Position numbers and translations under genes: made by a program | In this document: piece after piece, positions 9,834 to 19,526 of the stretch | Numbering within the stretch: position 1 is the stretch's first letter | Layout of the letters: every line of letters starts with the position of its first letter | Source: Candidatus Methylomirabilota bacterium | GTDB lineage: Bacteria > Methylomirabilota > Methylomirabilia > Rokubacteriales > CSP1-6 | Direction: 5' to 3' | Length of the DNA stretch: 30,108 bases | Assembly (NCBI GenBank): GCA_046733575.1 | Contig: JBKPPN010000218.1 | Coordinates: 1 to 30,108 of the forward strand | The notes under the pieces: generated by a model | The model's database searches: none | What the model saw: only the letters and a program-made list of their open reading frames with translations | Told to the model about the DNA's origin: nothing

Positions 9834-9849
9834 AGCAAGAGGGATGCCG
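9834..9849 (-). promoter_or_regulatory. Candidate sigma54 (-24/-12) promoter for the receiver gene
   Basis: CGGCATC-CCTC-TTGCT: GG and GC are separated by the canonical 10 nt of TGGCACG-N4-TTGCW. Confidence 0.55.
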
Positions 9850-17083: not shown

Positions 17084-17935
17084 GTGGGCGCGCTCGACTT
17101 CCACTCCCACACGACGGCGTCCGACGGCACGCTGGCGCCCCGCGACCTCGTCCGTCTGGCCGCGCGCCACGGCGTGCGCGTGCTCGCGGTGACCGACCAC
17201 GACTCCACCGACGGGCTGGCCGAGGCGATGGAGGAAGCGACGCGTCACGGCGACATGACGATCGTCCCCGGGCTCGAGATCAACTGCGACGTCGAGGGCG
17301 CAGAGATCCACGTGCTCGGCTACTTCGTCGATCACGGGGCGCCGTGGTTCCAGGCGTTCCTGCGCGAGCAGCGCGCGGAGCGCGTGGCGCGCGTGCAGCG
17401 GATCGCCGAGCGGCTGGGTGAGCTCGGCATGCCGATCGATCCCGCCGAGGTGTTCGCGCTCGTGAAGGAGGGGTCGCCGGGCCGTCCCCACGTGGCGCAG
17501 GTCATGGTGAACCGCGGCTACGTCAAGTCGGTGCGCGAGGCGTTCGACCGCTTCCTGCACGCGGGCGGCTCCGCCAACGTTCCGCGTCGGCGTCTCACAC
17601 CGACGGACGCGGTGGCGGTGATCCGGCGCGCGGGCGGCGTCCCCGTCTTCGCCCATCCCGGGCTCGCCAACCGCGACGCGCTCATCCCCGACCTGGTGGC
17701 CGCGGGTCTGATGGGGATCGAGGCTTACTACGCCGAGCACTCCGCGGGGCAGACGGTGCGGTATCTCGACCTCTGTCGCGAGCACGGCCTGGTCGCGACG
17801 GGAGGCTCCGATTACCACGGGCCGCAGAGCGGTCGCGTGAATCCGCCCGGCACACCGACGGTGCCGGCGTCGGCGTGGGACGGTCTCCGACGCGCGCGGG
17901 ACGTCGCCGCGACTGCCGAGCGGCCCGTGGAGTGA
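17084..17935 (+). CDS. PHP-domain phosphoesterase (TrpH/YciV-like)
   Basis: DFHSHTTASDG, TDHD, HVLGY, AHPG and GGSDYHG. Start is GTG 17084, or the in-frame CTG at 17075. Confidence 0.88.
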   Translation: MGALDFHSHTTASDGTLAPRDLVRLAARHGVRVLAVTDHDSTDGLAEAMEEATRHGDMTIVPGLEINCDVEGAEIHVLGYFVDHGAPWFQAFLREQRAERVARVQRIAERLGELGMPIDPAEVFALVKEGSPGRPHVAQVMVNRGYVKSVREAFDRFLHAGGSANVPRRRLTPTDAVAVIRRAGGVPVFAHPGLANRDALIPDLVAAGLMGIEAYYAEHSAGQTVRYLDLCREHGLVATGGSDYHGPQSGRVNPPGTPTVPASAWDGLRRARDVAATAERPVE

Positions 17936-17939
17936 GGGC

Positions 17940-18317
17940 GTGCCTGCCATCACGACCGTGCAGATCTTCGGATTCAACGATTGTCAGGACACGCGGAAGG
18001 CCCGGCGCTTCTTCTCGGAGCGGCGCGTCCAGGTGCACTACGTCGATCTGGACGAGCGACCGGCGGCGAAGGGCGAGCTGCGGCGGTTCGCGGAGAAGTT
18101 CGGGGCGGGCGCCCTGATCGACCGGGAGAGCCGGCGGTTCCGGGATCTCGGCCTCCAGGTGCGCGGGGACTCTCCGGAACGGATGCTCGACCGCGCACTG
18201 ACGGAGCCTCGCATCCTGCGGACGCCGCTCGTGCGCGCCGCCAACCGCGTCAGCGTGGGCCACGCGCCCAAGGACTGGCAGCGCTGGCTCGACGAGGCGC
18301 GCGGGGCGGCTAGCTGA
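17940..18317 (+). CDS. ArsC/Spx/MgsR-family thioredoxin-fold protein (single Cys)
   Basis: IFGFNDCQDTRKARRFF, DLDERP..KGEL.RF and PRILRTPLVR. Confidence 0.8.
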   Translation: MPAITTVQIFGFNDCQDTRKARRFFSERRVQVHYVDLDERPAAKGELRRFAEKFGAGALIDRESRRFRDLGLQVRGDSPERMLDRALTEPRILRTPLVRAANRVSVGHAPKDWQRWLDEARGAAS

Positions 18318-18332
18318 CGCGGCGAGGACCGG

Positions 18333-18485
18333 TCACTCGTCCCAGGTGCGATCCCAGCCGCTCGCGCGCGCGGCGGCGATGATGCGTCGCTTGCTCTCGA
18401 GGGGAAGGCGGCCGAACACGCGCTCGTAGGTCCGCAGCACGTCCTCGGTGCGCCACGATTCCAGGTCGCTCACTTGTCGTCGCAT
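18333..18485 (-). CDS. Unannotated 50-aa small protein (absent from the ORF track)
   Basis: MRRQVSDLESWRTEDVLRTYERVFGRLPLESKRRIIAAARASGWDRTWDE. Strong SD AAGGAGG upstream, with a sigma54-type promoter at the appropriate distance. Confidence 0.7.
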   Translation of the reverse strand: MRRQVSDLESWRTEDVLRTYERVFGRLPLESKRRIIAAARASGWDRTWDE

Positions 18486-18517
18486 CGGTCGCCCTCCTTG
18501 GCTCGCCCGCGAACGAC

Positions 18518-18533
18518 AGCAAGCGACTTGCCA
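18518..18533 (-). promoter_or_regulatory. Sigma54 (-24/-12) promoter
   Basis: TGGCAAG-TCGC-TTGCT, one mismatch to TGGCACG-N4-TTGCW. Predicted TSS near 18507 gives a leader of about 22 nt containing the SD. Confidence 0.75.
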
Positions 18534-18600
18534 GACCGTCCGCGCACGCCGTCGTGAGCGCGAAACGCGTGCGCGGTGGCTTCAGTCCGGTCGAAACCGT

Positions 18601-18613
18601 GGAAAGACTTTCC
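18601..18613. promoter_or_regulatory. Perfect palindrome, candidate enhancer-binding-protein site
   Basis: GGAAAG-A-CTTTCC, about 100 bp upstream of the predicted sigma54 TSS. Confidence 0.45.
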
Positions 18614-18686
18614 GCAAGGCGGCAAATGTCGCCGTCAGAAGACGTCAGGCGGTGCCACGCTGACGTGCCAAATGCTGCACGAATGG

Positions 18687-19526
18687 TCAGGCACTCGTCA
18701 CGTAGCGCGGAAAGACCGCGTGCAGCACGTCGAGAGGGTTCATCGCAAGCAGACCGGCCACCAGACGTCGCGCCGCCCCACGTACGGCGACGAACGTGAT
18801 CCGGGCGGACGCGATCACCGAGCCGTCGTCGCCGACGGCGGCGAGATGTGTCAGCCAGTACCGGTCGTCGCCGGGAGCCGGCGCGACGTCGTCGCGCCGG
18901 CCGACGACGGTCAGCGCTCCCGTCCCGACCGTCCGACGGTGGAGCGTCACGCGCAGGTCTGTGGTCATGCCCGATTCTCCCGTCGCCAGTGCCCCGAGCC
19001 AGAAGGCCGCCTCGTCGAGGAGCGTCGTGATCGCGACGGTCGACACGGTGTCGTCATCCGCGCGAAAGCGCTCATCCGGAACGAACCGCCCGTGCACGGT
19101 CGCGGCGTCGTGTGACAGCCGGAGCCCGAGCCCGATGACGTTGTCCGCTCCGCACGCGAAGCACGAGCGCGAGACGGGCAGCGCCATGCCGCCGCTCGGA
19201 ACCGATGTCGGCGGCGCGGGCGCCGACGCGGCTGAGGTGACGATCTCGCCGTCGACCACGACGCCGCCGTCCGTGGCGAGCGCGTACGTCCACGTGTCGG
19301 CCCCCGTCACGGTCAGGCGGAGCGGAACGCCGAGCGGCACGCGACGGCGGTAGACGCCGCGGATCTCTCGTCCGCCCGCGACGCCGGCGAGCAGGTCGAG
19401 CGCGCCGAGCACGCTGCCGCCGTGCGCGGTGTCGGGGAGGCCCTCGAAGCGGGGATCGAGCGTGAGCCGGAGGCCGCCGTCGTGCGTCTCGACGCCCGCG
19501 CGGAGGAGGGAGGCGATGGTCTGCAT
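18687..19526 (-). CDS. Tandem (double) hotdog-fold PaaI-like thioesterase
   Basis: Domain 1 has FEGLPDTAHGGSVLGALD. Domain 2 has SCFACGADN.IGLGL and TLLDEAA. Confidence 0.75.
   Translation of the reverse strand: MQTIASLLRAGVETHDGGLRLTLDPRFEGLPDTAHGGSVLGALDLLAGVAGGREIRGVYRRRVPLGVPLRLTVTGADTWTYALATDGGVVVDGEIVTSAASAPAPPTSVPSGGMALPVSRSCFACGADNVIGLGLRLSHDAATVHGRFVPDERFRADDDTVSTVAITTLLDEAAFWLGALATGESGMTTDLRVTLHRRTVGTGALTVVGRRDDVAPAPGDDRYWLTHLAAVGDDGSVIASARITFVAVRGAARRLVAGLLAMNPLDVLHAVFPRYVTSA

What the first reader, a model, noticed from the sequence alone, without database searches (positions are those of the whole stretch)
18333..18686. Hidden sigma54-controlled 50-aa protein gene with a palindrome-rich upstream region
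Seen: a complete expression unit missed by the ORF track. It has a near-consensus -24/-12 box (18533-18518), SD AAGGAGG, and a 50-codon ORF that is charged, helical-looking and ends in WDRTWDE. The roughly 150 bp non-coding upstream region contains a 10-bp inverted repeat (CCGCGCACGC 18540-18549 / GCGTGCGCGG 18567-18576), the palindrome GGAAAGACTTTCC (18601-18613) and a TGGCAC direct repeat (minus, 18670 and 18657). Established: sigma54 genes are activated from enhancers about 80-150 bp upstream. Inference: a tightly regulated small protein of unknown family, such as a stress or developmental effector.
Basis: partly seen in the sequence, partly recalled or inferred. Interest (0 to 1): 0.65.

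Follow-up and report, generated by a model that had tools for sequence, protein, structure and literature searches.

The report
Sigma-54-driven small protein gene, Rokubacteria
This is a real, conserved 50-residue protein gene of an uncultured soil bacterium (Rokubacteria) that is switched on from a sigma-54 promoter; it belongs to an undescribed small-protein family that carries this promoter type in every branch examined.

Summary
The 50-codon ORF (18333-18485, minus) is a real gene. It has 10 close relatives in metagenomes at 72-88% identity. dN/dS against six orthologous sequences is 0.07-0.18. The start codon and Shine-Dalgarno site are conserved.

The box TGGCAAGTCGCTTGCT (18533-18518) has the GG-N10-GC geometry of a sigma-54 promoter. 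It is unique in the window and invariant in nine orthologous loci. Equivalent boxes lie upstream of distant family members in other genera: 21 of 26 loci, against about 0.004 expected per upstream region at the stricter score cut-off (10 of 11 positions) that 19 of them reach. The genome encodes sigma-54 and about 19 enhancer-binding activators.

The protein is a predicted three-helix bundle with an invariant GWDRTW tail. It matches no Pfam or NCBIfam family, no solved sequence and no clear fold. The family was found only in one family of Methylomirabilota/Rokubacteria.

Most members end in -LAA or -AA, like the lineage's own tmRNA tag (…LALAA). The window's clade stops just before that tail. 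In one genus the promoter sits 13-14 nt from the ATG, which implies a leaderless mRNA.

The protein's function remains inferred.

The parts
18333..18485 (-). Coding sequence of the 50-aa small protein, stop codon included. Predicted three helices (residues 2-9, 13-24, 29-42) followed by an invariant GWDRTW tail.
   Evidence: 10 relatives at 72-88% identity. (dN/dS 0.07-0.18 against the window; most changes fall at third codon positions). (AF2 mean pLDDT 82).
18493..18499 (-). Shine-Dalgarno site AAGGAGG, 7 nt before the ATG.
   Evidence: A purine-rich GGAGG-type element is kept at this position in all nine orthologous loci.
18518..18533 (-). Sigma-54 type -24/-12 promoter TGGCAAGTCGCTTGCT. GG lies at 18532-18531 and GC at 18520-18519. 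The predicted transcript start is near 18507, giving a leader of about 22 nt.
   Evidence: unique in the window, 0.09 expected. (TGGCA and TTGC invariant in nine loci while the flanks diverge). (equivalent boxes in other genera).
18601..18613 (-). Palindrome GGAAAG-N-CTTTCC, centred about 100 nt upstream of the predicted start. Candidate activator-binding site.
   Evidence: no other exact copy in the 4.2 Mb assembly. (conserved in most orthologs and degenerate in the two most distant ones).
18620..18633 (-). Conserved element GGCGACATTTGCCG, 21 nt upstream of the palindrome's T-tract. Probably the second half of the enhancer.
   Evidence: a conserved island; ATTTGCCG is kept in eight of nine loci. 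(unique in the genome as an exact match).
18652..18670 (-). Direct repeat TGGCAC-N7-TGGCAC, about 145-163 nt upstream of the predicted start.
   Evidence: It is conserved only in the nearest relatives (L023, L027, L028, L030) and altered in L031 and L032, so its role is uncertain.
18673..18686 (-). Conserved non-coding block CCATTCGTGCAGCA, directly after the stop of the upstream 279-aa gene.
   Evidence: nearly identical in the window, L023, L031 and L032.
18540..18576 (.). 10-bp perfect inverted repeat with a 17-nt spacer, just upstream of the -24 box. The sequence is not conserved.
   Evidence: present. (orthologs have different sequences here, though short G+C-rich palindromes recur at this position).
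18318..18332 (-). Five codons after the TGA stop that read PVLAA in frame. Possibly a relic of the family's -LAA tail.
   Evidence: The family profile aligned through the TGA to its last position.

Best explanation
The locus is a monocistronic, enhancer-dependent sigma-54 expression unit.

How it most likely works:
- Sigma-54 RNA polymerase sits on the conserved -24/-12 box at 18533-18518 as a closed complex.
- One of the genome's roughly 19 enhancer-binding ATPases, encoded elsewhere, binds the conserved elements 90-130 nt upstream (GGCGACATTTGCCG and the GGAAAG-N-CTTTCC palindrome).
- On its signal, that activator drives open-complex formation.
- Transcription starts near 18507 and gives a short mRNA with a 22-nt leader and a strong Shine-Dalgarno site.

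The product is a 50-residue cytoplasmic three-helix protein with an invariant C-terminal GWDRTW motif. It belongs to an undescribed family found only in one family of Rokubacteria (Methylomirabilota).

Shown here: the gene is under purifying selection, and the promoter type is conserved across the whole family.

Inferred: the protein acts as a signal-induced regulator or adaptor, through protein contacts made by its conserved tail. In most family members the amount of protein would be limited by a built-in ssrA-like C-terminal degron (-LAA), giving a short pulse. The window's clade has lost that tail and ends in acidic WDE, so its product should be longer-lived.

The confidence given (0.7) is for the whole statement. 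Taken separately, the expression unit stands at about 0.85 and the proposed role of the protein at about 0.3.
For: Gene reality
- Ten metagenomic relatives at 72-88% identity, with 25 invariant residues.
- Conserved synteny: the gene lies convergent with ArsC-PHP-M17 peptidase genes.
- dN/dS is 0.07-0.18 against the window and 0.28 or less in every pair. Differences against the window are 16-20 at third codon positions, against 3-8 at first or second positions.

Promoter
- The pattern is unique in the window, with 0.09 expected.
- TGGCA-N6-TTGC is invariant in nine loci while neighbouring bases diverge.
- Boxes of the form YGGCAY-N5-TTGCW lie within 150 nt upstream in 21 of 26 loci from 9 genera, and 14 of them match at all 11 scored positions. 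Elsewhere in the same loci there were 4 hits at score 10 or more, and none at 11, in 138.7 kb.
- The four g34 loci that lack their own box sit in an operon whose first gene has one.

Sigma-54 machinery
- rpoN is present in this genome and in all 5 relatives tested.
- The genome has about 19 enhancer-binding proteins, and relatives have 19-31.

Enhancer
- Conserved islands lie at about -95 to -125.
- A different conserved palindrome, TGGGTA-N6-TACCCA, sits at the equivalent place in genera g36 and g26.

Protein
- The AF2 model has three helices and mean pLDDT 82.
- A family profile found 70 cluster representatives in 1.84 billion proteins, mostly 50-70 aa.

Degron
- 51 of 69 representatives end in AA and 29 in LAA. 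Among long ORFs of this genome the figures are 2.2% and 0.17%.
- The tmRNA tag in five relatives ends in LALAA.
Against: - There is no transcript-start or expression data for this uncultured organism, so sigma-54 dependence is comparative inference.
- The window's box has A rather than C at the sixth position (TGGCAA).
- The activator is unidentified and is not encoded nearby.
- No second copy of the enhancer elements was found in the 82%-complete assembly, so no regulon could be defined.
- Nothing bears directly on what the protein does. It has no family, fold or sequence match.
- Gene neighbours differ between clades.
- The degron reading rests on resemblance to the ssrA tag, and the window's own protein lacks that tail.
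Confidence: 0.7

Rival explanations
1. The small protein is a DNA-binding feedback regulator: a minimal tri-helical, helix-turn-helix-like protein that represses or modulates its own sigma-54 promoter or its activator's targets.
For: Three short helices and a net positive charge. Palindromes lie in the upstream region. The second Foldseek row is a LacI-type DNA-binding domain, but at E=9 and rmsd 8.1.
Against: No significant fold or sequence match to any helix-turn-helix family. The most conserved part is the unstructured Trp-rich tail, not a recognition helix.
Confidence: 0.15
2. The -24/-12 match is a chance or relic sequence. The gene is read from an ordinary sigma-70 type promoter, or by read-through from the upstream 279-aa gene on the same strand.
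For: The upstream gene is on the same strand, 200 nt away, with no predicted terminator between them. About half of the TGGCA-N6-TTGC matches in this 70% G+C genome are expected by chance: 40 were seen, against about 22 by my own composition estimate.
Against: The box is invariant in orthologs. It recurs in other genera where the upstream gene is different and divergent. No sigma-70-like promoter was found in the region.
Confidence: 0.06
3. The protein is a labile antitoxin-like or anti-adaptor-like inhibitor. It neutralises a partner encoded elsewhere and is removed by proteolysis.
For: It is small and helical. Most of the family carries a protease-type C-terminal tail.
Against: No conserved adjacent partner gene exists in any clade. 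The window's clade lacks the tail. Toxin-antitoxin pairs are normally co-transcribed.
Confidence: 0.1
4. The conserved element is mainly an RNA feature, and the ORF is incidental.
For: The unit is short and no function is known for the peptide.
Against: The substitution pattern is codon-periodic and dN/dS is low. Protein-level conservation extends to 36-50% identity with the start codon and ribosome-binding site kept. There is no Rfam match.
Confidence: 0.02

Closest known systems
Sigma-54 (RpoN) dependent promoters with upstream activator sites, such as glnAp2, nifH and pspA (consensus TGGCAC-N5-TTGCW; my own knowledge of the Barrios et al. 1999 compilation)
   Same: GG and GC dinucleotides exactly 10 nt apart. 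Conserved palindromic elements 80-150 nt upstream. rpoN and many enhancer-binding ATPases in the genome.
   Different: The activator and its signal are unknown. The window's box reads TGGCAA. In a sister genus the box lies 13-14 nt from the ATG, which implies a leaderless mRNA. I know of no described sigma-54 promoter with that layout, though I searched the literature for it only briefly.
Small sigma-54-induced feedback proteins such as PspA (inhibits PspF) and HrpV (inhibits HrpS); my own knowledge
   Same: A protein made from a sigma-54 promoter, with no enzymatic domain, that could act by binding a regulator.
   Different: No sequence or fold similarity. Not encoded next to an activator. 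At 50 aa it is much smaller. Feedback on an activator is only a hypothesis here.
Natural ClpX substrates with ssrA-like C-termini (C-motif 1, -LAA; my own knowledge of Flynn et al. 2003)
   Same: 74% of family representatives end in -AA and 42% in -LAA, matching the lineage's own tmRNA tag ending …LALAA.
   Different: The window's protein ends in WDE and lacks the motif. Degradation has not been tested for any member.

Membership tests
Sigma-54 dependent promoter | GG at -24 and GC at -12, separated by exactly 10 nt, within a TGGCAC-N5-TTGCW-like context | tested here: met
   TGGCAAGTCGCTTGCT at 18533-18518. It matches 10 of 11 consensus positions when Y is allowed at positions 1 and 6.
Sigma-54 dependent promoter | The organism encodes sigma-54 and enhancer-binding AAA+ activators | tested here: met
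   PF04552 hit at 8.9e-62 on contig C361. About 19 strong PF00158 hits. rpoN present in 5 of 5 relatives.
Sigma-54 dependent promoter | The element is conserved in orthologs beyond the background level of conservation | tested here: met
   Invariant in nine loci. Present in 21 of 26 family loci, with four more through an operon promoter.
Sigma-54 dependent promoter | Upstream activator site about 80-150 nt from the start | tested here: inconclusive
   Conserved islands lie at about -95 to -125, and an analogous palindrome occurs in other genera. No activator is assigned, and no second copy was found in the genome.
Sigma-54 dependent promoter | Transcription start about 12 nt downstream of the GC, dependent on rpoN and an activator | not testable with these tools
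   No transcript data are available for this uncultured lineage.
ssrA-like C-terminal degron (ClpX C-motif 1) | Extreme C-terminus -LAA or -AA | tested here: not met
   The window's protein ends …TWDE. The wider family meets the feature, with 51 of 69 ending in AA, and the five codons after the stop read PVLAA.
Any curated protein family (Pfam, NCBIfam) or solved structure | A significant profile or fold match | tested here: not met
   No Pfam hit at E 0.1. No NCBIfam hit for any of 14 members. No PDB sequence hit at E 10. The fold searches were inconclusive: best Foldseek E 8.3 and best VIA Z 3.6.
Type II antitoxin | Co-transcribed adjacent toxin gene | tested here: not met
   The gene is monocistronic in the window clade and its neighbours differ between clades.

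The most novel reading that the evidence does not exclude
The family is a set of sigma-54-induced 'pulse' regulators specific to Rokubacteria. Transcription is enhancer-gated, in one genus from a leaderless sigma-54 mRNA. An ancestral ssrA-mimicking -LAA tail hands the protein to ClpXP, so the signal is brief. The window's clade has cut the tail off with a stop codon, leaving a PVLAA relic, and so has turned a pulse into a sustained response.
Probability: 0.25. Interest if true: 0.65.

Novelty: new member of a known kind. Interest (0 to 1): 0.5.

Why it matters
Rokubacteria are abundant, uncultured soil bacteria whose genomes hold 19-31 sigma-54 activators each, and almost nothing is known about what these circuits control. 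This small gene is a clean, compact output of one such circuit. Its promoter and candidate enhancer are defined by comparison across genera, so it could serve as a reporter for finding the cognate activator and its signal in a heterologous host. Two family-level features are of general interest if confirmed: sigma-54 promoters that abut the start codon, and a built-in tmRNA-like tail that one clade has lost. They bear on how sigma-54 transcription is coupled to translation start and to proteolytic timing.

Tried and rejected
- Pfam and NCBIfam scans of the protein and of 14 family members found nothing.
- Fold and structure searches gave only weak, unrelated helical matches: Foldseek against the PDB (best E 8.3), VIA-align against 48,161 chains (best Z 3.6, EF-hand-like rows) and a profile search of PDB sequences.
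- The homodimer prediction returned no verdict (score 0.02). It says nothing either way.
- A genome-wide search for further copies of the palindrome, the ATTTGCCG element or the TGGCAC repeat found no convincing second site, so no regulon could be defined.
- A search for an enhancer-binding protein near the small gene found none in the window contig. In five relatives the nearest on the same contig is 49 kb or more away.
- The first genome-contig scan with the close-ortholog alignment found nothing. A narrower alignment then returned named Methylomirabilota/Rokuibacteriota MAGs.
- No tmRNA was found in this incomplete assembly, so relatives were used instead.
- The Rfam scan of the region found nothing.
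- The literature search for Rokubacteria plus sigma-54 returned no paper. Of the 36 hits for sigma54 plus leaderless, the ten listed titles and abstracts were looked at and none was opened.
- I first took the upstream 279-aa gene for a thioesterase. Pfam gives no support for that, so I dropped the label.

Full report
**Observation**

- A 50-codon ORF runs from the ATG at 18485 to the TGA at 18335-18333 and ends in WDRTWDE.
- AAGGAGG lies at 18499-18493, 7 nt before the ATG.
- TGGCAAGTCGCTTGCT lies at 18533-18518, with its GG and GC dinucleotides 10 nt apart. The pattern TGGCA-N6-TTGC occurs once in the 30 kb window, against 0.09 expected from shuffles.
- The 10-bp inverted repeat is perfect.
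- No sigma-70-like promoter and no intrinsic terminator is predicted in 17900-18900.
- No Rfam family matches the region.

**Is it a gene?**

Yes.
- The identical protein is already in the public collection, so the gene is not wholly unannotated. Ten metagenomic relatives share 72-88% identity, with 25 invariant residues, most of them in the C-terminal half.
- Their contigs keep the same arrangement, with the small gene convergent on an ArsC-family gene followed by PHP and M17 peptidase genes.
- Six distinct orthologous coding sequences differ from the window mostly at third codon positions: 16-20 changes there, against 3-8 at first or second positions. dN/dS is 0.07-0.18, and at most 0.28 in any pair.
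- The start codon and ribosome-binding site align in all nine loci.

**Is the promoter real?**

The genome is a 4.2 Mb, 70% G+C, 82%-complete metagenome-assembled genome. It encodes sigma-54 and about 19 enhancer-binding ATPases.

In an alignment of nine orthologous upstream regions, TGGCA and TTGC are invariant, while the six bases between them and the flanks vary.

More distant family members (36-50% identity) from other genera carry the same kind of box. Examples are CGGCATCGACGTTGCA and CGGCACGGCGGTTGCA.

I scored this systematically.
- 21 of 26 loci from 9 genera have a YGGCAY-N5-TTGCW-like box within 150 nt upstream.
- 14 of the 21 match at all 11 scored positions.
- The remaining 138.7 kb of the same loci hold four hits at score 10 or more, and none at 11.
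- Many of these genomes are close kin, so the count overstates independence. At least seven genera still contribute.

Four of the five loci without a box (genus g34) have the small gene abutting a DUF308 membrane-protein gene, and that gene is itself preceded by a TGG-N9-TTGCA box. The fifth (L037) has GA in place of GC at the -12 position. Sigma-54 is present in all five relatives tested.

With the C at 18519 as -12, the transcript should start near 18507 and have a 22-nt leader.

**Enhancer**

Two islands stand out from otherwise diverged sequence in the window's clade: GGCsAsATTTGCCG (18633-18620) and CGGAAAGTCTTTCC (palindrome at 18613-18601). They lie about 95-125 nt upstream of the predicted start.
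- The TGGCAC repeat is kept only in the nearest relatives.
- The 10-bp inverted repeat is not conserved.
- Genera g36 and g26 have a different conserved palindrome, TGGGTA-N6-TACCCA, in the equivalent place. Either the cognate activator or its site has diverged.
- No second copy of the window's elements was found in the assembly.
- No activator gene lies nearby, here or in five relatives.

**The protein**

AlphaFold2, run with a 14-sequence alignment, gives three helices (residues 2-9, 13-24 and 29-42) and a less ordered GWDRTWDE tail, with mean pLDDT 82. Nothing significant matches in Pfam, NCBIfam, PDB sequences, Foldseek or VIA-align.

A profile search of 1.84 billion cluster representatives found only 70 proteins, nearly all 50-70 aa. 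Among 251 genomes of the phylum, the family occurs in 25. All 25 are in the window's own taxonomic family, spread over 9 of 68 genera.

**Family features seen on the way**

1. A tmRNA-like tail.
   - 51 of 69 representatives end in -AA and 29 end in -LAA (typically …MDGLAA or …ELLAA).
   - Among long high-GC3 ORFs of this genome the figures are 2.2% and 0.17%.
   - The tmRNA tag of five relatives ends in …LALAA.
   - From general knowledge of ClpX recognition, this suggests a built-in degron.
   - The window's clade ends in WDE, WDEPAR or WDEPVS instead.
   - In the window the five codons after the TGA read PVLAA, and the family profile aligned straight through the stop. This hints at loss of the tail by a nonsense change, but a chance match in G+C-rich DNA is not excluded.
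2. A leaderless layout. In genus g36 the C of the -12 element lies 13-14 nt from the ATG. A transcript starting 12 nt downstream of that C would therefore be essentially leaderless.

**Mechanism and confidence**

The expression unit is well supported by comparison, at about 0.85: a sigma-54 promoter, an upstream enhancer, and a translated small protein under selection.

What the protein does is inferred only, at about 0.3. I favour a signal-induced regulator or adaptor that works through its conserved Trp-rich tail. Its lifetime would be set in most lineages by the -LAA tail and would be extended in this clade.

A homodimer prediction gave no verdict and is not used either way. Gene neighbours differ by clade, so context gives no firm functional lead:
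- ArsC, PHP and M17 peptidase genes in the window's clade;
- nitroreductase and IF-2B-family genes in g36 and g26;
- a DUF308 gene in g34, and hybrid histidine kinase or response-regulator genes in g34, g10 and g11.

**Novelty**

The promoter class is textbook. The protein family is undescribed and lineage-restricted. I found no paper linking Rokubacteria and sigma-54. I file the finding as a new member of a known kind, with two family-level twists worth testing.

Noticed in passing
L034-L036, L038, L040, L043, L046-L048, L050, L051 (genus g36), just upstream of the small gene: The sigma-54 type box CGGCAY-N5-GTTGCA ends 13-14 nt before the ATG. The predicted mRNA would have a 1-3 nt leader, so these would be leaderless sigma-54 transcripts.
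   Followed up: partly
Family-wide (P0012-P0081); tmRNA loci L059-L063: 74% of family representatives end in -AA and 42% in -LAA, mirroring the lineage's tmRNA tag A(D/N)TQLALAA. The background in this genome is 2.2% and 0.17%.
   Followed up: partly
window 18318-18332 (minus): The codons right after the small gene's TGA read PVLAA. Orthologs read RGLAV or CGLAV at the same place. This may be a relic of a lost -LAA tail.
   Followed up: partly
L053-L056 (genus g34): Here the small gene abuts or overlaps the end of a DUF308 (HdeD-like) membrane-protein gene. A TGG-N9-TTGCA box precedes the DUF308 gene, and a hybrid histidine kinase lies convergent downstream.
   Followed up: partly
L042, L045 and the g36 loci, about 50-70 nt upstream of the -24 box: A conserved palindrome TGGGTA-N6-TACCCA lies between the small gene and a divergent nitroreductase-family gene. 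It is a candidate enhancer and differs from the window's palindrome.
   Followed up: partly
window 18317-18333: The stop codons of the small gene and of the convergent ArsC-family gene (17940-18317, plus strand) are only 15 nt apart, with no predicted terminator. The two transcripts may overlap antisense. Orthologs (L023, L031, L032) have a G+C-rich hairpin here.
   Followed up: no
G026 contig C37 (L049 and L058): Two paralogs of the small gene lie 1.5 kb apart. Each has a TGGCAA-N5-ATGCA box whose -12 C is 58 nt upstream of the start codon.
   Followed up: no
window 9834-9849 (minus): A second sigma-54-like box, CGGCATCCCTCTTGCT, sits about 90 nt upstream of a 96-codon ORF.
   Followed up: no
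L026, about 60 nt downstream of the small gene's stop: A further sigma-54-like box, GGCACGCCGGTTGCT, follows the small gene in this metagenomic relative.
   Followed up: no
G000 and relatives G138, G143, G187, G189, G215: These Rokubacteria genomes each encode 19-31 sigma-54 enhancer-binding proteins, which points to a very large sigma-54 network.
   Followed up: no
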